This document shows, one piece after another, positions 6,834 to 15,219 of a stretch of 20,000 bases of DNA; position 1 is the stretch's first letter, and each line of letters opens with the position of its first letter. The stretch lies in IMG/VR virus record IMGVR_UViG_3300042691_022988; one strand, given 5' to 3'. The position numbers were made by a program, and so were the translations under genes. The notes below the pieces were generated by a model. That model made no database searches. It had not been told where the DNA came from and saw only the letters and a list, made by a program, of their open reading frames with translations. The DNA is from an uncultured virus (IMG/VR IMGVR_UViG_3300042691_022988) (lineage: Duplodnaviria; Heunggongvirae; Uroviricota; Caudoviricetes).

Positions 6834-7301
6834 TTATCCCTTTTTTAGATTTTTATTAACACGCTTCACGGTCTTTTTTGCAGATGCGTAATCAAGATTA
6901 TTAGCGGTATAAGAATAACCACCAGAAAGGTTTCTTGTATATCCTGTTTTTTGAGATGGTTTCGCCAAACCCTTTAATTTATTTACCAGTCCCTTATCAA
7001 CTACCTTTTCTTTTGTAGCAGTAGTGCTTGTTTGTTTTTTAGGACCATAACGGTAAATATCAGTTGACGAAGAAGAAAGAGATTTTACCTTTCTAGTAGC
7101 GCCATTTGCGAACTTTTGTTTTGCTTTTACTTTTTTCGTAGATAGATCCTGACCCTTTTCAGTAAGAGCCTTGCGATAAACAGAACGACTTTTTGTAACC
7201 GTACCCTGCGCGTCTACGCTTTTAGATTTGGTAATGGTTTTTTGATTACCACTAAAAGGATTAGTGCGAACTATCGTTTTTTCTTTTGGTTTATTAGCCA
7301 T
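6834..7301 (-). CDS. Lys/Thr/Ser-rich basic protein
   Basis: 155 aa; abuts the downstream gene. Confidence 0.75.
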   Translation of the reverse strand: MANKPKEKTIVRTNPFSGNQKTITKSKSVDAQGTVTKSRSVYRKALTEKGQDLSTKKVKAKQKFANGATRKVKSLSSSSTDIYRYGPKKQTSTTATKEKVVDKGLVNKLKGLAKPSQKTGYTRNLSGGYSYTANNLDYASAKKTVKRVNKNLKKG

Positions 7302-7319
7302 TGTATCTAATTTTTAAAA

Positions 7320-7481
7320 TTATTTTACCTTAGTTGTCCTCATCATCAACTGTCTTTTTGGACCAGATGTAGAGACCTTGGTTGTCTTCATCATTAATTG
7401 TTTTTTAGGAGTTGATGAAGAAACTTTTGTGGTCTTCATCATCAACTTTTTCTTTGGGTCTGGTTGATTTTTCTTGATCAT
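7320..7481 (-). CDS. 53-aa basic protein with three internal repeats
   Basis: MIKKNQPD-PKKKLMMKTTKVSSST-PKKQLMMKTTKVSTSG-PKRQLMMRTTKVK*; ATG is 1 nt after the upstream stop. Confidence 0.7.
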   Translation of the reverse strand: MIKKNQPDPKKKLMMKTTKVSSSTPKKQLMMKTTKVSTSGPKRQLMMRTTKVK

Positions 7482-7482
7482 G

Positions 7483-7632
7483 TTATTTCTTTTTAGCTGT
7501 TTTCTTTGACTGTGCAAATGCCTTTGCCGTAGGTGCGCCCTTCGTTCCGGGCTTCCTCATCTTCTCGCCTGATCCAGCAGCAATTCTCTTGCGCTTGGCG
7601 TTGATGTTTGCGTATAGTCCCTGTTTTGCCAT
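7483..7632 (-). CDS. 49-aa basic phage protein (missed by the ORF track)
   Basis: MAKQGLYANINAKRKRIAAGSGEKMRKPGTKGAPTAKAFAQSKKTAKKK*; TAATG coupling; GLYANI.AKRKRI motif recalled from aquatic phages. Confidence 0.8.
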   Translation of the reverse strand: MAKQGLYANINAKRKRIAAGSGEKMRKPGTKGAPTAKAFAQSKKTAKKK

Positions 7633-7751
7633 TATCCCTGTCCTCTTGTTGGTTTAACATTCTTATCCTTGGGAGACTTGCGCTTAAAGGGCTTGCCCTC
7701 CTTTCTTTTGCCAAAGGTAGTCTTTAATCCGCTTCCTAGTGCCTTTGCCAT
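7632..7751 (-). CDS. 39-aa basic peptide ending RGQG (missed by the ORF track)
   Basis: MAKALGSGLKTTFGKRKEGKPFKRKSPKDKNVKPTRGQG*; TAATG overlaps at both ends. Confidence 0.75.
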   Translation of the reverse strand: MAKALGSGLKTTFGKRKEGKPFKRKSPKDKNVKPTRGQG

Positions 7752-8299
7752 TATTTTTTACCTTTTCGTACTTCTTTTTTAAACGCAGCACGTTGAGAAA
7801 TAGGGTTACTCAAAACGTATTTGCGTGTTTCTTGATTCTTTGCAGAGTTAGCCTCAACCTGGTATGATCTTCCTCCCTTAGTTTTTCCCTTACCGGCAGG
7901 GATTCGAAGATTGCGAGTATGGGCAGTAACGGCTGATTTACGAGATGTCATAGTCTTTTCAACACCACGCTTACCCTCTCCAGAGCGAGTCACAGTCTTG
8001 CGACGAACCATTGATGGAGTAGAAACAACCTTTGTCTTCTTATCAGACGCGCTGTCGTAACCAAACTGCTTTTTTGGGTTAGCAACATTTTTCTCCATCT
8101 GCATCTGACGACGAGGAGTATCCTTACTACGCTCAGTCAAAAATGGCTTGCTTTCCCCCTTACGATACTCTTTGTAAGTCTTCTTATTTAAGCGAGGACC
8201 AGAAACCTCCTTTGACTTGTACTCATAGCCGGAACCGCTCTCCCCGCTACTCTTGGTAACAGTGCGACCCAGTAAGTTTTTTCTGATTTTTTCGGGCAT
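7751..8299 (-). CDS. Basic protein, paralog of 8589-9023
   Basis: MPEKIRKNLLGRTVTKSSG N-terminus; TAATG coupling. Confidence 0.8.
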   Translation of the reverse strand: MPEKIRKNLLGRTVTKSSGESGSGYEYKSKEVSGPRLNKKTYKEYRKGESKPFLTERSKDTPRRQMQMEKNVANPKKQFGYDSASDKKTKVVSTPSMVRRKTVTRSGEGKRGVEKTMTSRKSAVTAHTRNLRIPAGKGKTKGGRSYQVEANSAKNQETRKYVLSNPISQRAAFKKEVRKGKK

Positions 8300-8589
8300 T
8301 ACTTTTTCTTGGTTTTTGACTTTCCGGTTTGTCTTCCAGGAGTCATCATGTTTTGAATTCTTACTTTCTTCTTTTCAAGCTGACCAAGTTTACCCTGGGC
8401 CAGACTCGATTCAGAAACCCCAGTAATTCTACTAGCAGCCCTGTTCAAGTATTCCTCCTTGTTCAGCCCAGCCTGATTAGATTTCAACTTCGATATCTTT
8501 GTTTCAACCTTCTTCAGCTTAGCCTCGTTTCTCTGTTTTAGAGTCTTAGGCTTGGGAAAACTTTTTGAACCGTTTGATCGTGATTTCAT
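8299..8589 (-). CDS. Basic protein
   Basis: 27 of 96 residues are K+R; TAATG coupling. Confidence 0.75.
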   Translation of the reverse strand: MKSRSNGSKSFPKPKTLKQRNEAKLKKVETKISKLKSNQAGLNKEEYLNRAASRITGVSESSLAQGKLGQLEKKKVRIQNMMTPGRQTGKSKTKKK

Positions 8590-9023
8590 TATTTGTTCTT
8601 TTTGATTTGACGACGAAATTCAGCAGCCTGACGCAAAGCGCCCATATTGGTCCTCGTAGAAGTCTCGCCAGGCTTTCTTGTTTCAACCGAACGTACTTTA
8701 CCTGATCTCCCTCTTACTGTTTGTTTTTCAGTAGTAACTCCACCAGATAGTCCTGCCTTACCGACCTTTCTTCTCGTTACATCAGATTTACCAGCTGGAT
8801 AATCGTATTTAATTTTTTCCCTTACAGACTTATTGTTTTCGGACCTTTTCAAAGTACGAACAGTACCATCCGATAGTACCGACTTGGTTTTTGCCTTTAA
8901 CTTTATAGACTCGCCCCTAGAATTTTTAACTAACTTTCTTTTAAATTCTACACCGCTAGAGTTTACTCCAGACGTTTTAGTTACGGTGCGACCTAGCAAG
9001 TTCTTTTTAATTTTTTCTGGCAT
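8589..9023 (-). CDS. Basic protein, paralog of 7751-8299
   Basis: MPEKIKKNLLGRTVTKTSG N-terminus. Confidence 0.8.
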   Translation of the reverse strand: MPEKIKKNLLGRTVTKTSGVNSSGVEFKRKLVKNSRGESIKLKAKTKSVLSDGTVRTLKRSENNKSVREKIKYDYPAGKSDVTRRKVGKAGLSGGVTTEKQTVRGRSGKVRSVETRKPGETSTRTNMGALRQAAEFRRQIKKNK

Positions 9024-9033
9024 ATCCTTATTT

Positions 9034-9357
9034 TTAGAATTTTGATCTCGTTGATGGCGAATGCTTCTCCTTCTCCTTGCGACGGAACTCCTCCATCTCC
9101 TCCTTACGCTTGGCTACCTGCTTAGGCGTTAAAACCTTATTCTTCTCGCCGGTAGAAGCAGACGAAGTCTTTACAGTATAACCCTTCGAACCAGCACCAG
9201 ATCCGCCACCCCCAGTGTCATATGCAGCGCACCCATCCTTACTACAACTCATACTGACCTCCTGGTCCTTAGCGTCCTTCTTCTTTTTCTTCTTCAAGAA
9301 CTGACTCACATAACTGGCGCCAAACATATTGTCGCGATAATCTTGAGATGCTTCCAT
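9034..9357 (-). CDS. Low-complexity charged protein, first gene of the basic operon
   Basis: MEASQDYRDNMFG... The start at 9357 lies just downstream of promoter 9372-9379. Contains a K7 run, CSKDGC and a Gly-rich linker. Confidence 0.7.
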   Translation of the reverse strand: MEASQDYRDNMFGASYVSQFLKKKKKKDAKDQEVSMSCSKDGCAAYDTGGGGSGAGSKGYTVKTSSASTGEKNKVLTPKQVAKRKEEMEEFRRKEKEKHSPSTRSKF

Positions 9358-9371
9358 GGAGCTTTTTTTTA

Positions 9372-9402
9372 CAAATATACACGGATGCACATAATAATCA
9401 AA
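9372..9402 (-). promoter_or_regulatory. Bacteroidetes promoter driving the basic-protein operon
   Basis: Minus strand TTTG-19 nt-TATATTTG. Confidence 0.8.
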
Positions 9403-9523
9403 AAAAATCATAATACCAGGATGGTTGGGAAAATCGTTGACCAACTAGGGTTGGGGTCACCCCCCCCGGCAGGCGGTTACGCGACCCGACCCGAAGTCGA
9501 TTTGGCAACAGGGGTGGGGTACT

Positions 9524-9708
9524 TAACACCCTGATTTGCAGCCTGTTATGCCACCAAGGCCAACTGCTTGACCCTCAGGTAGATATAGCACACAGCACAC
9601 AGCCCGATGCGCGGCAACTTGTCTCCGCTCGGTGGAGAAAGTAGACTAACCCATTGATAATCAACCCGTTTGCATAAACGTCACAACGTGTTAAGTATCA
9701 GCACGTTA
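9524..9708. repeat. Three 25-bp quasi-palindromes containing IHF-like sites
   Basis: TAAC-ACC-CTGA-TTT-GCAG-CCT-GTTA (9524-9548), TAAC-CCA-TTGA-TAA-TCAA-CCC-GTTT (9647-9671), CAAC-GTG-TTAA-GTA-TCAG-CAC-GTTA (9684-9708). Each has WATCAR-N4-TTR on one strand. Confidence 0.6.
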
Positions 9709-10242
9709 CACCATGCATGACCATGCCCGCTAGATACTGCAAGCACCCCGCCCGATGCCCTAGAAACCACACGGCCTGAACGCCTGAAAACCCCGCCATT
9801 CCTGAGAACCATGCAAGGCTCGGAAATTCTGCTTGGGGTAACCTAGATTGAGTTGGCCTAATGTGCGGGCGTGCACGAGTGCTTTATGTGCTCTCTCTCC
9901 TGTCTCTTGGTGTGTGTGTGTTATTACATAGGGTGGATTGTGGGTTATTTGCCCGCGCATGGCCTGTCCTTTGCCTGCTGTTTGGCTGTCCTGTTTTACC
10001 CTGTCTGATGTCTCCTGATTGCTCACCTGTAGACCGCTTCCCAGGACGCATACGCTTTTTGTTGATTTTCGCTCTCAAACCCGCGCTGTGCCTGTCCTAG
10101 AGAACATCTGATGCTGTTTTTGGGTTTTGGCCTGTTTCTACCCCTGTTCACCCCCTCCCCTAGCTGTGAGAAACGCCCATTTCTGACTATTTCCCGCCGG
10201 CCTGAATCCCTTGTCCTACGCGGCTTTCAGCACCATTGCTTA

Positions 10243-10273
10243 CAAAGATAGTCAATGTTTTCGCGGCTTCCAA
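10243..10273 (-). promoter_or_regulatory. Leftward Bacteroidetes promoter reading into the non-coding region
   Basis: Minus strand TTG-20 nt-TATCTTTG (10243-10250). Confidence 0.6.
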
Positions 10274-10295
10274 GAAATAACGTAAAAAAGATTAA

Positions 10296-10350
10296 AATTC
10301 GTCGATGATAAATTATAATTCGTCGACACTTTTTGTCAGTTAGGCGAATT
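10296..10350. repeat. Direct repeat AATTCGTCGA x2 (21-bp period) plus an inverted half-site
   Basis: Copies at 10296-10305 and 10317-10326; CGAATT at 10345-10350. Confidence 0.6.
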
Positions 10351-10458
10351 TATTGCCTTTGGCTGTAATTCAGTTATTGGATAGACGTGGCGCGGGTTTC
10401 AAAAAAGCAAATCTCTGAACACCGCATAAACACAGGTCGTTTAGAAGGTCTTTAAAAC

Positions 10459-10491
10459 TTGATTTAGAACTTAGATATCCCCTTATCTTTG
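10459..10491 (+). promoter_or_regulatory. Putative major early promoter
   Basis: TTG (10459-10461) and TATCTTTG (10484-10491); heads the long + strand gene array. Confidence 0.75.
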
Positions 10492-10496
10492 CCACC

Positions 10497-10971
10497 GTTC
10501 AACGGAACAACGGAGTGCTCAAATCACCCGCAATAGTAATACCTCGTGAGACGTGTGAAATTGAAAGATAGCTAGCAGTTCTGATTCCCTCTCTGCAACA
10601 ATCAAAAGAGGGTGAGCGCTTAGGCAACGAAGCGACGGGAGTTCGCCCGCAAATAGCCGACAACATTCGGCAACCTGTCAGTAGCAAGGTTAGGAGCTAC
10701 AGGTTAAACGAACGAGAACCCTGCAAATAGCAGGGGACTACAAAAGCCGAGTCTTGGGACTATACGCGGTGACCCCTAACGGGAGAGCGGATGAGTACAG
10801 CGGTAAACAAGTAGCACAGCTATGCGTATGTGACAACGTATGGCTGTGTGTATCAATACTACAGCGCAACGGCGCAAATTCAATACAACTATAGCAACGA
10901 CGCATGGTGCGGCAAGCCTAGATGACTGAGGTCGCTAGTCTCGCAGGGGGTTCGAGTCCCCCCGTTGTTCT
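10497..10971 (+). ncRNA. Candidate ~470-nt structured non-coding RNA or leader
   Basis: No + strand ORF in the track. Consecutive hairpins at 10587-10612, 10617-10634, 10636-10649, 10656-10671, 10672-10705, 10719-10735 and 10815-10848. 5' GAACAACGG (10505-10513) is complementary to 3' CCGTTGTTC (10962-10970). Confidence 0.6.
10893..10970 (+). ncRNA. tRNA-like structure 1 (non-canonical, no true anticodon arm)
   Basis: Acceptor AGCAACG/CGTTGTT; mini D-arm CGCA-TGG-TGCG; long arm closed by a TGAG loop; T-arm GGGGG-TTCGAGT-CCCCC; no CCA. Confidence 0.7.
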
Positions 10972-10991
10972 AACACTTAAAACACAACATC

Positions 10992-11471
10992 ATGAACATG
11001 ACAAAAGGCACAGCCTTCGAAGTTGAAATCTTCAAGCAAATGAACTTATCACAGGAAGTAATTGAGCAGCACATATACGACTATGCGCCAATCATGAAAC
11101 TGATACCGCTCACAACTGATGAAATCAGGGAACAGGGTAGAGACTACAACCCTAGAGAATGGGACAGGGTCATTGACAGGATGCTCAACTACAACGGTAT
11201 CAAGTGGTTCAAACGTGACAGGAACGAGAGTTCAAACGGCTACGATGAGTACTTCGCGGTATTCAGCAACAGCGCAGGCGTCAAGGTAATCAATCACGTG
11301 TCATACAGCGCGTCCATGACCAACACTCCGTGGGTCGAGGTTGCTATCGACGAGGACAACATCCTGCACTACAACCGCCGCTCAATTCGCTTCAAGCGCA
11401 ACGACGAGGCTAGGGACTACCTAGCAGAGCAAAGCAAGACAAGCGGTCGCATCTACACGACAATCTTCTGA
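10992..11471 (+). CDS. Early hypothetical protein
   Basis: 159 aa with an A/C-rich leader; its stop TGA abuts hammerhead 1. Confidence 0.8.
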   Translation: MNMTKGTAFEVEIFKQMNLSQEVIEQHIYDYAPIMKLIPLTTDEIREQGRDYNPREWDRVIDRMLNYNGIKWFKRDRNESSNGYDEYFAVFSNSAGVKVINHVSYSASMTNTPWVEVAIDEDNILHYNRRSIRFKRNDEARDYLAEQSKTSGRIYTTIF

Positions 11472-11523
11472 GGTTAACTGATGAGACTTCAATAGTCGAA
11501 ACTGCCTACGGGCAGTCTTAACC
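11472..11523 (+). ncRNA. Type I hammerhead ribozyme 1
   Basis: GGTTAA-CTGATGA-GAC-TTCAATA-GTC-GAA-ACTGCC-TACG-GGCAGT-C-TTAACC. Full catalytic core; GUC cleavage after 11517. Confidence 0.93.
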
Positions 11524-11532
11524 AATAGCAAT

Positions 11533-11694
11533 ATGAAAGCAATCCAATCCCTCGCATCATTCGCAATGGTGCTGTTCTTTTTCCTGAGCACGATAGTCGC
11601 GCCAATGGCCGGCATTTGGTTCTTACTGCCGCTGACTATCCTGTGCCTGAACCTGAGCCTGAACCTATTCGTTCAAATTCATAATTCCAAGTAA
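11533..11694 (+). CDS. 53-aa two-TM membrane protein (missed by the ORF track)
   Basis: MKAIQSLASFAMVLFFFLSTIVAPMAGIWFLLPLTILCLNLSLNLFVQIHNSK*; fills the gap up to ATG 11696. Confidence 0.7.
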   Translation: MKAIQSLASFAMVLFFFLSTIVAPMAGIWFLLPLTILCLNLSLNLFVQIHNSK

Positions 11695-11695
11695 C

Positions 11696-11887
11696 ATGAC
11701 TGAGAAATTCTACTTCCGCAAACTAGGCGGTTGGCCGTTCGAAATGGAGGCCACAATCAACGATGGCCGCCACCGAGCAAACTTCCTAGCGGCCATGAAG
11801 CGCAAGCGTTTCATACAGGTCGACGAGGCCGAGTACATCAAGGACAGCAGACTGCGCTCGATGTACGCATCAATGTTCCACAAGTAA
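11696..11887 (+). CDS. Early hypothetical protein
   Basis: 63 aa, coupled to the upstream stop. Confidence 0.7.
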   Translation: MTEKFYFRKLGGWPFEMEATINDGRHRANFLAAMKRKRFIQVDEAEYIKDSRLRSMYASMFHK

Positions 11888-11906
11888 TCAATAAACAGTA
11901 ATCGAT

Positions 11907-12233
11907 ATGACAACACAAGAATTCATTCAGCAAATGGGCAAGATGCCTGTTGCAAACTACAACGACGGCACAATTCACTTCGAGAATGGCCTCGAAATCA
12001 GCCACAGCGTTAAGCTAGCAGAATGGCAAGGCGACTTGCCTCTGCAAATGGTCGTGCGGGTATCTTTCCAAGGCGACTACGTTATGACGTGGGGCGCTGA
12101 GACTGACGAAGACAATCGACAGCTAGTGTATATGTGGCGCACGTTGAAAAGCCGCGCACAGGAGCGTTCAAAGGACATACAGCAGTACAACTCCCGTACA
12201 GGTTACGAACTGCTCATGAAGGGGCTGCAATAG
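11907..12233 (+). CDS. Early hypothetical protein
   Basis: 108 aa; its stop TAG overlaps hammerhead 2. Confidence 0.8.
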   Translation: MTTQEFIQQMGKMPVANYNDGTIHFENGLEISHSVKLAEWQGDLPLQMVVRVSFQGDYVMTWGAETDEDNRQLVYMWRTLKSRAQERSKDIQQYNSRTGYELLMKGLQ

Positions 12234-12291
12234 GTAAACTGATGAGGCTTCAATAGCCGAAACCACGGGGCTTGCCCCTGTGGTCTTTACC
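12233..12291 (+). ncRNA. Type I hammerhead ribozyme 2
   Basis: GGTAAA-CTGATGA-GGC-TTCAATA-GCC-GAA-ACCACGGGG-CTTG-CCCCTGTGGT-C-TTTACC. GUC cleavage after 12285; stems covary with copy 1. Confidence 0.93.
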
Positions 12292-12303
12292 AATACTAAC
12301 GAT

Positions 12304-12588
12304 ATGAAAGCAACAATCGAAATCACGTCGACCTACGGGTTCGACCACTATTGGACACTAGTGTGTTCAACACCTAAGACAACCAAGAGTTTCTACCTAG
12401 GACAGGACTGCAAATTCTGCGAACGAATACTAGGTATGAATACTGCGTGGGTTGCCCGCGAGATTGGCACGAACAGGCTCGACACCGAGGCAGGCCGCGA
12501 GAAACTAGCCAAGTACATCTGCTCTACGCTAGGCATCAACGGACGTACAATGAAACAATATCAATCATGGTCGCTCTGCGCCCAATAA
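12304..12588 (+). CDS. Early hypothetical protein
   Basis: True start is likely ATG 12304 (MKATIEIT...), because the GTG at 12280 lies inside the ribozyme. Confidence 0.8.
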   Translation: MKATIEITSTYGFDHYWTLVCSTPKTTKSFYLGQDCKFCERILGMNTAWVAREIGTNRLDTEAGREKLAKYICSTLGINGRTMKQYQSWSLCAQ

Positions 12589-12600
12589 ACCAACAACACC

Positions 12601-12855
12601 ATGTTACACAACGAGCATCTAAGCAAGGCGGATGAACTATACGAGGTTCGCCACGACAACAACGGCAACGCTATCCATGTATTCATCAAGGACGGCGAGG
12701 CAATCATCTTTCAGAACCTGCATGACTTTGTCATGAGAATCTATTACGGCAAAGAGGTCGAGCGATTCTACCTCAGCGAAGAGGAACTGACCGATATGTA
12801 CAATAGCAACGATTACGAGTATTACGAACTAAAATCAAAATACAGCCATGAGTAA
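12601..12855 (+). CDS. Acidic early protein
   Basis: 84 aa with an A/C-rich leader. Confidence 0.75.
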   Translation: MLHNEHLSKADELYEVRHDNNGNAIHVFIKDGEAIIFQNLHDFVMRIYYGKEVERFYLSEEELTDMYNSNDYEYYELKSKYSHE

Positions 12856-13150
12856 CATTGAAAGATTCGCACGCATATGCAGTGCAACCAACGAGGGCAT
12901 GAATGAGGGCTTCCTGTTCGAAGAGAGCCTCATGTACTTCATCGAGAAGGACGATGCCGAACGCTACGCCATCGAGATTGGCTACGCTGACCTTGACGAG
13001 GCATACGACGACGATGCCTACTGCTACACGGAGTGGGATTGGGAAGACGAGGGTGAGTGGTACGAGAAGCACGACGGAGTATGGTACGAATGTACCAACG
13101 ACAGCAAGGTCGAAGTTAACATGAACAGCAACCTATTTTGGAAACAATAA
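12848..13150 (+). CDS. Highly acidic early protein (DNA-mimic candidate)
   Basis: 27 D/E versus 7 K/R in 100 aa; aromatic-rich. Confidence 0.75.
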   Translation: MSNIERFARICSATNEGMNEGFLFEESLMYFIEKDDAERYAIEIGYADLDEAYDDDAYCYTEWDWEDEGEWYEKHDGVWYECTNDSKVEVNMNSNLFWKQ

Positions 13151-13151
13151 C

Positions 13152-13436
13152 ATGAAGACAAAGCAAATCGTCGACGCGTACGTTAACGCTATCAACTCCG
13201 GAATTTGGGACTATCCCAATGGCCACGAGTTCAACAGCCCTGCTGAAATCTACAAGCTAGTGTGCGAGGGTAAAACAATCTACCACTTCGGACGCGAGGC
13301 CGTGATACACTACGGCTCGATGACGGGTGCGCTGATGGCATTCGGTGGCATCGGGTACACTTCGCAGTCAACTCGCAAGGCAATTAGAACAGCAGTATTG
13401 TATGCTCAGAAAGTAAGTCAAACCAATAACAACTAA
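13152..13436 (+). CDS. Early hypothetical protein
   Basis: 94 aa, coupled. Confidence 0.75.
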   Translation: MKTKQIVDAYVNAINSGIWDYPNGHEFNSPAEIYKLVCEGKTIYHFGREAVIHYGSMTGALMAFGGIGYTSQSTRKAIRTAVLYAQKVSQTNNN

Positions 13437-13441
13437 GCAAT

Positions 13442-13693
13442 ATGGACAACATCAAAATCACAGCAGACGGCTTCGTGTGGCTCATCGTCACGGACGTAGC
13501 AGAGAAACTTTACTACAGCAATGCCATGCAGGTTTACCGCCTGTACGATGACGGCACAGAGGCTCTCATCCTTGACTTCAGAGAACTGCAAGATGCACTA
13601 GCAGCAGGCAACGACATCGGGGTCGAGATTGCCCCGTTATGGAAACTTGTAGATTCACATCATTATCAAGCACTAAACAAATACAATCAATGA
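13442..13693 (+). CDS. Early hypothetical protein
   Basis: 83 aa; DGFVWLIVT...LYDDGTEALI. Confidence 0.75.
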   Translation: MDNIKITADGFVWLIVTDVAEKLYYSNAMQVYRLYDDGTEALILDFRELQDALAAGNDIGVEIAPLWKLVDSHHYQALNKYNQ

Positions 13694-14199
13694 CAACACA
13701 ACAGCAACACATCATCAACTCGCTTGTAGCTGAGTTCGAACGAATCAACAATCCAAGACCAAATGGCTTCGCTCGTATAGGCGAGGCACTTGACAAGTGT
13801 GACGAATGGTCAACACTATTCGCGCAGGTTACAGCATCCAATGCCCGATATACATACCTCCGCGAGCAGATGATTGAAACCGATTACAATCGACTTGTCG
13901 AAGAGTGTAGACTCGCTGGCCTTAATCTTCGCATTACCACAAACGATGACTACATCTATATTGATATGCAAGGCACATATCAGACTGACCATGCGATTAA
14001 AATCCACTATTGGTTTGATACGAAAATGCACATGAGTGCCGCACGACAATCAATTAACGAAGTCAAGTCAATACGCCTTCATTCGTATCAAGCCACATCG
14101 AATTTCAGCGACAGCTTCGCGTCCATCGATAGCTTGTTTCTACATGAAACATTCTTCCGCAATTGGACTAAGCTAATTGAACTCTCACGCAATAATTAA
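13690..14199 (+). CDS. Early hypothetical protein
   Basis: ATGA overlap at 13690-13693 gives the MTTQQQ start. Confidence 0.75.
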   Translation: MTTQQQHIINSLVAEFERINNPRPNGFARIGEALDKCDEWSTLFAQVTASNARYTYLREQMIETDYNRLVEECRLAGLNLRITTNDDYIYIDMQGTYQTDHAIKIHYWFDTKMHMSAARQSINEVKSIRLHSYQATSNFSDSFASIDSLFLHETFFRNWTKLIELSRNN

Positions 14200-14220
14200 A
14201 CACAACACACAACAACGCAA

Positions 14221-14361
14221 ATGAAACACTTCAGTATATACCGAAACATCCCTTTCTTAGACTGCAAGGGATTAGGCTTCCATTACCAACGAATAGGCAA
14301 CAGGTATTGGATAGACGTACCATTCATAAGTATCACATTTAAAATTATAAATAACAAATAA
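14221..14361 (+). CDS. 46-aa hypothetical protein (missed by the ORF track)
   Basis: MKHFSIYRNIPFLDCKGLGFHYQRIGNRYWIDVPFISITFKIINNK* after a CAACAACGCAA leader. Confidence 0.6.
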   Translation: MKHFSIYRNIPFLDCKGLGFHYQRIGNRYWIDVPFISITFKIINNK

Positions 14362-14374
14362 ACACAACAACGAA

Positions 14375-14605
14375 ATGAAAATCTTATTCTTCGCGGCCAT
14401 GATGGTCGCACAGCACTGCGCGGACACGCGCTTCAAAGAAATGCAAGACGACGGCACAATCGTGTACGAAGGGGAGGACGAGGACACAGGCAGAGCGATG
14501 TTCACTATCATTCTTCCTGACACGACCATCCACTACGCTTACGAGGCCGAGGTCAAGCAGTTCATCAAAACCGGAAATTTCACCTATAACGACCAATTAC
14601 AATGA
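14375..14605 (+). CDS. Hypothetical protein with a signal-peptide-like N-terminus
   Basis: MKILFFAAMMVAQHCA... Confidence 0.7.
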   Translation: MKILFFAAMMVAQHCADTRFKEMQDDGTIVYEGEDEDTGRAMFTIILPDTTIHYAYEAEVKQFIKTGNFTYNDQLQ

Positions 14606-14787
14606 AGCACACACTTCGAATTGAGCCACTCCTTTGGCTCGCCTACATCGCTGCAATCATTACAGCAGCCGTACTCATGAGTTCATGCAGTACCTCACGT
14701 CGAAACAACTACCAAGACCATCTCCGATCGACCCCGACTGAAAACTGGGTGCGCCACGATAATGGTGGATGTGGTTGGCACAACTAA
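14602..14787 (+). CDS. Small putative lipoprotein
   Basis: Hydrophobic stretch followed by a lipobox-like LMSSC; ATGA overlap. Confidence 0.65.
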   Translation: MKHTLRIEPLLWLAYIAAIITAAVLMSSCSTSRRNNYQDHLRSTPTENWVRHDNGGCGWHN

Positions 14788-14830
14788 CATGGCTATGGAG
14801 CAAGCAGGGGTTCGAGTCCCCTGCCATGTT
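14787..14830 (+). ncRNA. tRNA-like structure 2 (44-nt acceptor plus T-arm minihelix)
   Basis: ACATGGC/GCCATGT 7-bp acceptor; TATGGAGCAAGC linker; AGGGG-TTCGAGT-CCCCT T-arm; begins at the upstream stop codon. Confidence 0.7.
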
Positions 14831-14862
14831 CTCTGCTCACAGCAGGCTCGTAATGCAACGAG

Positions 14863-14900
14863 AGGAGGGGAGCGGCAACGGCTGCACCCTCCTTATTTTA
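14863..14900 (+). terminator. Possible terminator or structured element
   Basis: AGGAGGG...CCCTCCT followed by TATTTT. Confidence 0.4.
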
Positions 14901-14934
14901 ACATCTCTTAACAAGTGTAATTTAAACTTTAATA

Positions 14935-14942
14935 TACTTTTG
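14935..14942 (+). promoter_or_regulatory. Bacteroidetes -7 element
   Basis: TACTTTTG before ATG 14965. Confidence 0.55.
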
Positions 14943-14964
14943 TACCACTTAAAACAACAGCAAC

Positions 14965-15219
14965 ATGACGCAAGAGCAAATCAAACGCAGGCTTTTATTC
15001 ATCATCGATGACGCGAGCCGTTTACTTCACCACCTAGAGTCAGGCAAGGACATGAGCGAATTCACGGGCTTTGCTGACGATGGGTATACACACCTGTCAA
15101 ACATCCAAATCGCAGCAGACCTAGAGGACACGGAGTCTGACGTGTGGAAGAACGTACACTCCATGGATGCAGAAACCTTAGAACTTGTAACACTTAATTT
15201 TTCAAAAAGCAAAATATGA
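14965..15219 (+). CDS. Hypothetical protein
   Basis: 84 aa with an A/C-rich leader. Confidence 0.75.
   Translation: MTQEQIKRRLLFIIDDASRLLHHLESGKDMSEFTGFADDGYTHLSNIQIAADLEDTESDVWKNVHSMDAETLELVTLNFSKSKI

What the first reader, a model, noticed from the sequence alone, without database searches (positions are those of the whole stretch)
10497..10971. Candidate new ~470-nt structured RNA closed end-to-end and ending in a tRNA-like domain
Seen: there is no credible ORF between the promoter and the first gene, but at least seven back-to-back hairpins, including a 13-bp stem with G-U pairs at 10815-10827/10836-10848 that favours the + strand, and GCAAATAG twice. The 3' acceptor strand CCGTTGTTC has two mutually exclusive partners: local AGCAACG (10893-10899) or the extreme 5' GAACAACGG (10505-10513, 9 perfect bp). 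Inference: either a tmRNA-like architecture in which the whole RNA is closed by an acceptor/T-arm, or a conformational switch between long and short processed forms. It would be the first RNA made on infection, so it could be a decoy, an antitermination element or an anti-defence RNA. I cannot assign it to a known class (GOLLD, ROOL, Y RNA, tmRNA).
Basis: partly seen in the sequence, partly recalled or inferred. Interest (0 to 1): 0.75.

Follow-up and report, generated by a model that had tools for sequence, protein, structure and literature searches.

The report
Phage early leader RNA with tRNA-like end
An uncultured freshwater phage begins its early genes with a conserved, folded, non-coding RNA of about 480 bases that ends in a self-contained tRNA look-alike, which most likely marks where host tRNA-trimming enzymes cut the leader off the message; it is not one RNA clamped shut end to end.

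Summary
Window 10492-10970 (+) has no conserved ORF, is hairpin-dense, contains GCAAATAGC twice, and ends in a perfect T arm. Rfam and ARAGORN find nothing.

I found ten sequence variants in related phage and metagenome contigs. The block is better conserved than its downstream flank in 6 of 6 comparisons and than its upstream flank in 5 of 6.

Covariation supports eight local hairpins in a conserved 5' domain (10492-10740). It also supports a locally closed 78-nt cloverleaf-like element (10893-10970), in which an 11-bp arm with a tetraloop replaces the anticodon arm.

The proposed 5'-3' closure (10505-10513 with 10962-10970) shows no covariation and breaks in two lineages. C10511 covaries with G10530 in a local hairpin, and the 3' acceptor strand covaries with the local AGCAACG. 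The tmRNA-like reading is therefore not supported.

The 5' domain, the middle hairpin cassette and the tRNA-like end recombine independently between phages. Downstream, 43-46-nt tRNA-like minihelices and type I hammerhead ribozymes sit at gene boundaries of the same operon.

Best reading: a modular leader whose tRNA-like end is an RNase P / RNase Z processing signal. This step is inferred, not shown. What the released ~400-nt RNA does is unknown.

The parts
10459..10491 (+). Candidate early promoter of Bacteroidota type: TTG (10459-10461), 22-nt spacer, TATCTTTG (10484-10491). Predicted start near 10496-10500.
   Evidence: TA(T/n)nTTTG with an upstream TTG/TTTG is kept in every variant that reaches this far, and it lies exactly at the upstream edge of the conserved block. 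The same motif precedes other operons. That this is the Bacteroidota consensus is recalled, not tested. No start site was mapped.
10492..10740 (+). Conserved 5' domain of eight local hairpins. P1 10511-10530, P2 10540-10555 (GUGA loop), P3 10587-10612, P4 10617-10634, P5 10636-10649, P6 10656-10671, P7 10673-10704, P8 10719-10735. Conserved single-stranded stretch 10556-10586.
   Evidence: RNAalifold on 9 sequences. For the seven counted hairpins (P1, P3-P8; scored as 8 helices because P7 has two segments), 40 pairs, 99.7% of 342 cells paired, 9 pairs changed on both sides, 7 of the 8 scored helices with at least one such pair. 0 of 500 shuffles reach the covariation score, and slid controls give 36-41% paired. 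P2 was read by hand.
10505..10513 (+). Its last three bases belong to hairpin P1.
   Evidence: C10511:G10530 changes to U:A in G004 and G005. There is no compensation with the 3' end.
10649..10657 (+). First GCAAATAGC. CAAAUA forms the junction between P5 and P6.
   Evidence: The motif is not invariant: GCAAATGGC in L067 and L072, GCAAACAGC in L071.
10723..10731 (+). Second GCAAATAGC, forming the loop and closing pairs of P8.
   Evidence: The P8 stem shows C-G, G-C, U-A and G-U at one pair and U-A/C-G at another.
10741..10892 (+). Exchangeable hairpin cassette (version V1). Includes the 13-bp hairpin 10815-10848 and the hairpin 10864-10875.
   Evidence: Related phages carry unrelated sequence here: V2 in G003, G005, L067 and L072; V3 in G004 and L028. 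Within V1, GCGC/GCGC becomes GAGC/GCUC in L039, and the 13-bp stem keeps pairing through U-A/U-G changes.
10893..10970 (+). 78-nt tRNA-like element. Acceptor 10893-10899/10963-10969. D-like hairpin 10901-10911 with loop UGG. 11-bp arm 10915-10941 with bulged A10922 and tetraloop UGAG. T arm 10946-10962. Discriminator C10970.
   Evidence: All 7 aligned variants are 78 nt long. 27 pairs, 95.7% of cells paired, 15 pairs changed on both sides, 0 of 500 shuffles, slid controls 35-55%. The minimum-energy fold of the piece alone is this cloverleaf. L071 adds CGUG/CACG in the D hairpin. ARAGORN calls no tRNA.
10971..10991 (+). 21-nt A-rich unstructured leader (UAACACUUAAAACACAACAUC) before the ATG at 10992.
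   Evidence: Sequence. CTAA follows the element in all aligned variants.
11472..11523 (+). Type I hammerhead ribozyme directly after the stop codon of ORF 10992-11471. Predicted cut between C11517 and U11518, leaving a 15-nt leader before the ATG at 11533.
   Evidence: Core CUGAUGA...GAAA...GUC and three stems. Weak RAGATH-1-hammerhead match, 23 bits against a gathering score of 56.3. Stems covary among 4 copies.
12234..12290 (+). Second type I hammerhead, after the stop codon of ORF 11907-12233. Predicted cut between C12285 and U12286, leaving an 18-nt leader before the ATG at 12304.
   Evidence: (31.1 bits against 56.3).
14786..14831 (+). tRNA-like minihelix: acceptor AACAUGG/CCAUGUU, linker CUAUGGAGCAAG, 6-bp T stem, discriminator C. 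It overlaps the stop codon of ORF 14602-14787 and is followed by two hairpins, a terminator-like hairpin and a new TAnnTTTG promoter (14935-14942).
   Evidence: T stems of 7 minihelices are 100% paired, and 3 of 6 pairs changed on both sides.

Best explanation
Window 10492-10970 is the non-coding 5' leader of the rightward early operon of an uncultured freshwater phage, probably of a Bacteroidota host. It is built from three independently exchangeable RNA modules:
- a conserved 5' domain of eight local hairpins (about 250 nt);
- a lineage-specific hairpin cassette (about 150 nt);
- a locally closed 78-nt tRNA-like element that has acceptor stem, D-like hairpin with a GG loop, and T arm, but an 11-bp tetraloop-capped arm in place of the anticodon arm.

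Inferred mechanism. Host RNase P cuts 5' of A10893 and RNase Z cuts 3' of C10970. This releases an RNA of about 395 nt rich in hairpins, a 78-nt tRNA-like RNA, and an early mRNA that starts with a 21-nt unstructured A-rich leader.

Further downstream, 43-46-nt tRNA-like minihelices and self-cleaving type I hammerheads would do the same job at gene boundaries, leaving 15-21-nt leaders.

Shown: non-coding status, + strand RNA structure, local closure, modularity, and recurrence of both element types. Inferred: the start site, the cleavages, and any role of the released leader.
For: 1. Conservation. Identity of the block to the window is 99.0, 94.9, 86.0, 70.9, 65.3 and 61.9% in six homologs. The upstream 300 nt give 67.5, 94.7, 61.8, 58.8, 49.8 and 50.3%. 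The downstream 300 nt give 40.9, 80.0, 40.0, 37.6, 40.6 and 40.8%.

2. Covariation. 5' domain: 9 of 40 pairs changed on both sides, 99.7% of cells paired. tRNA-like element: 15 of 27 pairs, 95.7%. Wobble pairs (G-U at 2:71 of the acceptor, U-G in the long arm, P8 and the 13-bp stem) fit only the + strand.

3. Local closure. The acceptor pairs change G-U to G-C, A-U to G-C and G-C to A-U together with the local 5' strand.

4. Family of elements. Seven further minihelices in the early operons of the window and of G002-G005 share the plan: 7-bp acceptor starting AA, a UGG-containing linker ending GCAAG, T arm, discriminator C, then U.

5. Hammerheads. Type I hammerheads stand at other gene boundaries in the window (2), G002 (1), G003 (1) and L025 (1).

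6. Base before the acceptor. It is U in 14 of 17 elements read, as bacterial RNase P prefers (recalled). Many of these elements are related by descent.

7. Modules recombine. L067 joins a window-like 5' domain and window-like first gene to cassette V2. G005 joins the G004-type 5' domain to V2.

8. Precedent. Perreault et al. 2011 (PMC3088659; passages read) proposed that hammerheads flanking prophage genes process long transcripts.

9. Weak expression hint. One contig in each of two metatranscriptome libraries from two studies covers 10536-10713 and 10518-10709 of a relative. DNA carry-over is not excluded.
Against: - No cleavage, transcript end or start site has been observed. The RNA-library contigs cannot show ends or strand.
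- A1-U72 (or A-G in G004 and G005) and discriminator C are unusual for bacterial tRNAs. The D hairpin has only a 3-nt loop, so recognition by RNase P or RNase Z is assumed.
- The strong conservation of loops and single-stranded stretches in the 5' domain is not explained by a mere spacer that is cut off.
- In the window's own sequence, the computed minimum-energy fold prefers the long-range 5'-3' pairing.
- Host assignment rests on a recalled promoter consensus and one protein whose best cultured-phage match is a Chryseobacterium phage at 51% identity. TAnnTTTG is not significantly enriched overall: 23 found against 15.0 +/- 4.1 expected, and 13 of 200 shuffles do as well.
- Only about ten variants were found, several closely related.
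Confidence: 0.6

Rival explanations
1. First reader's main reading. One RNA of about 470 nt is closed end to end by an acceptor stem made of its extreme 5' (10505-10513) and 3' (10962-10970) ends, tmRNA-like.
For: There are nine perfect Watson-Crick pairs in the window. RNAfold's minimum-energy and centroid structures use them. The pairing (8-9 bp) is retained in the window-type, G003, L039, L067 and L072 variants. A 9-mer complement within about 470 nt is unlikely by chance (my estimate, about 0.002).
Against: - 0 of 9 pairs show compensatory change, and 7 of 63 cells are unpaired, all in G004 and G005 where the 3' strand changed.
- The local 5' strand does follow those changes.
- C10511 covaries with G10530 instead.
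- The G005 full-length fold closes the tRNA-like element locally.
- Modules recombine independently.
- ARAGORN finds no tmRNA or tag peptide, and Rfam tmRNA matches only the T arm at 14.1 of 47 bits.
- Position 3:70 is C-G, not G-U.
Confidence: 0.05
2. Conformational switch. In the window's lineage the 3' acceptor strand alternates between the local partner (processable tRNA-like form) and the 5' end (closed form that hides the processing signal), which times release of the early mRNA.
For: The two partners are mutually exclusive, and the long-range one is thermodynamically better in this sequence. Both strands are invariant in 8 of 10 variants.
Against: The switch cannot form in G005 (at most 3 contiguous pairs, read) and is weakened in G004. 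The 5' strand's invariance is explained by P1 and the conserved 5' end. Co-transcriptional folding would form P1 long before the 3' end exists (inference).
Confidence: 0.08
3. The leader acts in cis on transcription, either as a put-like processive antiterminator or as a heavily folded untranslated leader that keeps Rho off. The tRNA-like end is incidental.
For: It sits immediately downstream of the early promoter in a divergent, operator-rich control region. About 470 nt of untranslated RNA would otherwise be exposed to Rho (inference).
Against: The consensus scan finds no convincing intrinsic terminator inside the early operon 10992-14786. The leader bears no resemblance to known put, nut or EAR RNAs in Rfam. 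This reading explains neither the exchangeable middle cassette nor the minihelices at later gene boundaries.
Confidence: 0.12
4. The tRNA-like elements are not cut on both sides. Instead they stay on as protective 3' ends of the upstream RNA, perhaps with CCA added, or as 5' translational enhancers.
For: One minihelix (14786-14831) stands at the operon's end just before a terminator-like hairpin. tRNA-like 3' ends stabilise RNAs in other systems (recalled).
Against: The elements occupy the same kind of position as self-cleaving hammerheads. They are followed by short unstructured leaders of similar length: 21 nt against 15 and 18 nt.
Confidence: 0.1
5. The T arm plus 3' acceptor is a fragment of a host tRNA gene (attP core), or the whole region works as DNA (origin, iterons).
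For: Phage attP sites often carry tRNA 3' ends (recalled). Two related contigs end inside the region.
Against: Each copy has its own covarying 5' acceptor strand and D-like hairpin. Several copies lie in one operon. G-U wobble substitutions are strand-specific. No integrase was found among the 35 ORFs scanned. G002's 127-nt terminal repeat has the length of an assembly overlap (my reading). The invariant 5' motif is absent from 185,579 species genomes.
Confidence: 0.03

Closest known systems
MALAT1/mascRNA and MEN-beta tRNA-like 3' modules; t-elements of plant mitochondria (tRNA-like processing signals)
   Same: A tRNA look-alike without decoding capacity sits at the 3' end of a long non-coding RNA or between RNA segments. 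It offers an acceptor/T-arm stack to RNase P and RNase Z. Rfam's mascRNA model is the best whole-element weak match (16.4-24.7 bits).
   Different: This one is in a bacteriophage. The scores are far below gathering (42.5). The anticodon arm is replaced by an 11-bp arm with a bulged A and a YGAG tetraloop. Cleavage is not shown here. These comparisons are recalled; no paper on them was read.
Hammerhead ribozymes flanking genes in prophage and phage operons (Perreault et al. 2011, PMC3088659; passages read)
   Same: Same genomic logic: small RNA-cutting elements at gene boundaries of long phage transcripts. The two hammerheads in this window are such elements.
   Different: The finding itself is not a ribozyme. 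Here tRNA-like elements take the equivalent positions, and the first of them closes a conserved leader of about 400 nt.
tmRNA
   Same: T arm with GGUUCGAnUCC; a long structured body upstream of the T arm; no anticodon.
   Different: The acceptor is closed locally, not by the RNA's two ends. There is no G3-U70, no tag reading frame and no ARAGORN or Rfam call.
Bacterial and phage Y RNAs (YrlA) that mimic tRNA (Chen et al. 2014, PMC4201824; search listing and abstract only)
   Same: A non-coding RNA with a tRNA-like module (T arm, D-like arm) and no anticodon.
   Different: No Rfam Y-RNA family is among the matches listed up to E = 10. No Ro60-type (TROVE) domain was found among the 35 ORFs scanned. 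No terminal Ro-binding helix is supported.
HK022 put / lambda nut leader RNAs
   Same: Structured RNA directly downstream of an early phage promoter.
   Different: Size (about 480 nt against about 70 nt), no sequence or structure likeness, and no internal terminators seen. The comparison is recalled, not tested.

Membership tests
tmRNA | Acceptor stem formed by the 5' and 3' termini of the RNA | tested here: not met
   The long-range helix has 0 compensatory pairs and 7 of 63 cells unpaired. The local acceptor covaries.
tmRNA | Detected by ARAGORN or the Rfam tmRNA models; tag-peptide reading frame | tested here: not met
   ARAGORN finds 0 genes. RF00023 matches only the T arm, 14.1 bits against 47.
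tmRNA | G3-U70 alanine identity pair (recalled criterion) | tested here: not met
   3:70 is C-G in 7 of 7 variants (pair 3-76).
Canonical tRNA | Cloverleaf with a 5-bp anticodon stem and a 7-nt anticodon loop | tested here: not met
   An 11-bp arm with a 4-nt loop YGAG in 7 of 7 variants. ARAGORN calls none.
tRNA-like processing element (mascRNA / t-element kind) | Coaxial acceptor plus T stem of about 12 bp with a T loop of tRNA consensus | tested here: met
   7 + 5 bp with UUCGA(G/A/C)U loop. Both helices covary. Minihelices have 12-13 bp.
tRNA-like processing element (mascRNA / t-element kind) | Sits at a boundary between RNA segments | tested here: met
   It lies between the leader and the first ORF. 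Minihelices lie at stop codons or intergenic gaps.
tRNA-like processing element (mascRNA / t-element kind) | Cleaved by RNase P at the 5' side and RNase Z at the 3' side | not testable with these tools
   Only contigs of RNA libraries were available; they show no ends.
Y RNA / YrlA | Rfam match; Ro60 (rsr) gene nearby; terminal Ro-binding helix | tested here: not met
   No Y-RNA family is among the four Rfam matches listed up to E = 10. No TROVE domain among 35 ORFs. The terminal helix is unsupported.
Type I hammerhead ribozyme (neighbouring elements 11472-11523, 12234-12290) | Conserved core CUGAUGA / GAAA / cleavage triplet GUC, and three stems with stem I open | tested here: met
   Sequence. 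Stems I, II and III covary among 4 copies.
Type I hammerhead ribozyme (neighbouring elements 11472-11523, 12234-12290) | Reaches an Rfam gathering score | tested here: not met
   RAGATH-1-hammerhead 31.1 and 23.0 bits against 56.3. L025's copy scores 26.5 on Hammerhead_1 against 34.
Any Rfam 15 family (for the 5' domain) | cmscan match | tested here: not met
   No match in the window at gathering scores. In 10250-11050 at E up to 10, only weak matches inside the tRNA-like element (10903-10969) and none in the 5' domain. None over the leader in five homolog loci at E up to 1.

The most novel reading that the evidence does not exclude
The RNA of about 395 nt upstream of the tRNA-like element is a new class of phage-encoded structured non-coding RNA. 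It would mature by a MALAT1/mascRNA-like route: RNase P cutting at a 3' tRNA-like module. It would then act in trans early in infection. The conserved 5' domain would be a host-factor-binding scaffold, and the exchangeable middle cassette a host- or defence-specific payload (decoy or anti-defence RNA).
Probability: 0.25. Interest if true: 0.75.

Novelty: new variant of a known kind. Interest (0 to 1): 0.55.

Why it matters
If the processing model is right, these phages use three interchangeable devices to cut one early transcript into a free non-coding RNA and single-gene messages with short leaders. The devices are full tRNA mimics, minihelix tRNA mimics and hammerhead ribozymes. That would extend the 'tRNA punctuation' principle of mitochondria, and the MALAT1-mascRNA way of making a long non-coding RNA, to bacteriophages.

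The conserved 250-nt domain is an uncatalogued structured RNA. Its covariation support is good for the small sample. Its sequence-conserved loops (CAAAUAGC, UUGAAAGAUAGC) call for a binding partner.

The predicted cleavage sites are exact (U10892|A10893 and C10970|U10971). The idea can therefore be tested in vitro with synthetic RNA, although neither phage nor host is cultured.

Tried and rejected
- **Cultured phages.** blastn of 10250-11050 against 50,697 phage records found no match. tblastn of the Cas4-like exonuclease found no match.
- **Own genome.** Not held.
- **Prophage copies.** The invariant 5' 25-mer is absent from the genome-contig collection.
- **Small ORF in the 5' domain.** A stop-free frame of about 50 codons looks conserved at the amino-acid level. 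It has no ATG, GTG or TTG start, is shifted by a 2-nt indel in G004 and G005, and is stopped early in G003. Rejected.
- **Minus-strand ORFs.** Open stretches of up to 116 codons occur in G003, but frames and stops differ between homologs. Rejected.
- **Sigma-70 promoter hits** (for example 10292-10319) lie in sequence not conserved in G002.
- **TAnnTTTG enrichment** is not significant overall: 23 against 15.0 +/- 4.1.
- **Two-motif pattern scan.** It returned 29 loci. One was a new homolog (L039). Most of the rest were one unrelated repeated 87-nt match (17 loci) or low-complexity repeats.
- **Gene-plus-hammerhead duplication.** ORF 10992-11471 and ORF 11907-12233 as a duplicated cassette: the proteins are unrelated.
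- **Minihelix acceptor count.** No formal pair count, because MAFFT put the two subtypes one column out of register. Only the T stems were counted.
- **RNA libraries.** Contigs of relatives cover only 10518-10713. The parts without cover say nothing, because flanks differ between relatives and DNA carry-over is possible.
- **Terminator scan.** It gave no support for an antitermination role.
- **G004 full-length fold** is no more stable than shuffles (z = 0.19).
- **Earlier notes of this scan** by place and by sequence returned nothing.
Full report
**Context.** The window is phage-like. It encodes a primase/helicase fragment, a DnaA-C-type HTH protein, a metallophosphoesterase, a Cas4-like exonuclease, NinB, and many small ORFs without family. 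Genes 6834-10026 run leftward and genes from 10992 run rightward, so 10100-10990 is a divergent control region. The same DNA is held by many freshwater metagenome runs. No cultured phage matches the region. The metallophosphoesterase's best cultured-phage match is a Chryseobacterium phage at 51% identity.

**Checking the observation.**
- The + strand folds better than shuffles (z = -4.0, 0 of 100 shuffles as good). The - strand does so less clearly (z = -1.9, 3 of 100).
- ARAGORN finds no tRNA or tmRNA in the window.
- Rfam finds nothing at gathering scores. At E up to 10 it touches only the tRNA-like element, with weak scores for tmRNA, mascRNA and two unrelated families.

**Relatives.** Exact and degenerate DNA patterns taken from the region recovered homologs in five further IMG/VR records (G002-G005, L039). 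They also recovered three more (L067, L071, L072) and eight metagenome loci, several of them duplicates. This gives about ten distinct variants.

The block from the promoter to the CTAA behind the tRNA-like element is 99.0 to 61.9% identical to the window. In all six comparisons it is better conserved than the 300 nt downstream. In five of six it is better conserved than the 300 nt upstream; L025 is a tie. In G002 the first gene behind the block is a different gene altogether.

**Not coding.** No ORF is shared. A stop-free frame in the 5' domain looks conserved only because the nucleotides are. It has no start codon, is shifted by an indel in G004 and G005, and is stopped in G003. Minus-strand frames are inconsistent.

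**The 5' domain (10492-10740).** RNAalifold on nine sequences predicts local hairpins.
- On that structure, 99.7% of 342 cells pair.
- 9 of 40 pairs change on both sides.
- 7 of the 8 scored helices (P1 and P3-P8, with P7 counted as two segments) carry at least one such pair.
- 0 of 500 column shuffles reach the covariation score.
- Sliding the partners by 1-3 columns drops pairing to 36-41%, with 0-1 compensatory pairs.

The structure was derived from these same sequences, so the percentage paired is flattered; the compensatory counts are not. A further hairpin, P2 (10540-10555, GUGA loop), was read by hand: UAC-C-UC/GA-C-GUG becomes UAG-C-CC/GG-C-CUG or CUA. Long single-stranded stretches (10556-10586) and the CAAAUAGC motifs are conserved in sequence. 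The first CAAAUAGC varies in three variants.

**The tRNA-like element (10893-10970).** All seven aligned variants are exactly 78 nt. Its parts are:
- a 7-bp acceptor;
- a 4-bp D-like hairpin with loop UGG or AGG;
- an 11-bp arm with one bulged base and a YGAG tetraloop;
- a 5-bp T stem with loop UUCGAGU;
- discriminator C.

On this structure 95.7% of 188 cells pair, 15 of 27 pairs change on both sides, and 0 of 500 shuffles do as well. Slid controls give 35-55%. The minimum-energy fold of the piece alone is the same cloverleaf. With a tetraloop in place of an anticodon loop it cannot decode.

L039 changes C10901:G10911 to U:A, and L071 turns the D stem into CGUG/CACG.

**End-to-end closure tested.** All seven unpaired cells lie in G004 and G005, the two lineages whose 3' acceptor strand changed to CGUUGCG and UGCUGCG. 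In those lineages the local 5' strand did change with it (AGCAACG, AGCAGCA).

The only variable base of the 5' strand, C10511, becomes U in G004 and G005. It is compensated by G10530 becoming A, in the local hairpin P1. The G005 full-length fold has a locally closed cloverleaf, and the G004 fold shows no such closure either.

In fairness, the window's own minimum-energy fold does use the long-range pairing. Eight of ten variants keep 8-9 complementary bases. A lineage-restricted switch is therefore not excluded.

**Modularity.** The stretch between the 5' domain and the tRNA-like element exists in three unrelated versions (V1-V3). These are combined differently with two types of 5' domain, several tRNA-like variants and different first genes. 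Within V1 the hairpins also covary or keep pairing through U-A/U-G exchanges that work only on the + strand. Independent reassortment argues for a string of autonomous modules, not one global fold.

**The wider pattern.** The same early operons carry 43-46-nt tRNA-like minihelices. Each has a 7-bp acceptor beginning AA, a 11-13-nt linker with UGG and GCAAG, a 5-6-bp T stem, discriminator C, then U.
- There is one in the window (14786-14831), two more in G002, three in G003, and one each in G004 and G005.
- Their T stems are 100% paired, with 3 of 6 pairs changed on both sides.
- Their acceptors differ and stay complementary: AACAUGG/CCAUGUU, AAACAGG/CCUGUUU, AACAGGA/UCCUGUU.

Two type I hammerheads stand directly behind stop codons in the window (11472-11523, 12234-12290). 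Others are in G002, G003 and L025. Their three stems covary, although all score below Rfam gathering thresholds.

After the predicted cuts, the next ORFs would have leaders of 21, 15 and 18 nt. The base before the acceptor is U in 14 of 17 elements, many of them related by descent.

**Promoter.** TA(T/n)nTTTG, with TTG or TTTG about 22 nt upstream, is kept in every variant that reaches this far. It lies exactly where conservation begins. A mirror copy (10243-10250, minus strand) faces the leftward operon, and the motif precedes other operons. I recall this as the Bacteroidota housekeeping promoter consensus. It is not significantly enriched in the window as a whole, and no start site is mapped.

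**Expression.** One contig in each of two metatranscriptome libraries from two studies covers 10536-10713 and 10518-10709 of a relative. In one case the contig continues into a V2/V3-type cassette. Contigs show neither strand nor ends, and DNA carry-over is possible, so this is only a hint.

**Interpretation.** The region is a modular non-coding leader. Its tRNA-like end is best explained as a signal for host RNase P and RNase Z, equivalent to the minihelices and hammerheads downstream. Hammerheads flanking prophage genes were proposed to process long transcripts by Perreault et al. 2011 (PMC3088659; passages read). Earlier notes of this scan report similar operons in other phages; these are leads, not evidence.

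Processing alone does not explain why the 5' domain is so well conserved, loops included. A trans-acting role for the released RNA of about 395 nt is the most interesting reading still open.

My four literature searches for a phage description of such tRNA-like punctuation or leader returned none. The library lacks most subscription journals, so this is not proof of absence.

Noticed in passing
window 11472-11523 and 12234-12290: Two complete type I hammerhead ribozymes stand directly after stop codons, below all Rfam gathering scores. Relatives have copies with covarying stems, and an invariant ACCAAUA follows stem I.
   Followed up: partly
window 14786-14965: A conserved end-of-operon module: tRNA-like minihelix, two small hairpins (CUGCUCACAGCAG, CUCGUAAUGCAACGAG), a GC-rich hairpin with a U-tract, then a TACTTTTG promoter. 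It is kept in G002 to G005. The stretch 14865-14965 gives a weak Rfam RT-9 match (26.8 bits against 46.1).
   Followed up: partly
window 10077-10097, 10219-10229, 10262-10272, 10379-10401: A repeated CGCGG(G/C)TTTCA motif, three direct copies plus an inverted pair, lies between the divergent promoters. GTGGCGCGGGTTTCA is conserved in six of seven homologs aligned (GCGTGGGTTTCA in L039). It is probably an operator for a phage regulator.
   Followed up: no
window 10100-10275 (minus strand): A leftward TATCTTTG promoter (10243-10250, minus) is followed by about 200 nt that are highly conserved with G002 before the first leftward ORF. This may be a second non-coding leader.
   Followed up: no
window 10587-10596; G001:C1:1 and the G002 contig ends: Two related assemblies break inside the 5' domain. 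G001 ends at window 10587, and G002's 127-nt terminal repeat equals window 10594-10720. This is probably strain mosaicism around a conserved block breaking the assembly graph, not a genome end.
   Followed up: partly
loci L037, L040, L044 and others: An unrelated sequence, highly conserved in many small viral contigs, carries GCAAATAGCC and GCAAATAGC with the whole match spanning 87 nt. It is probably coding and is not related to this leader.
   Followed up: no
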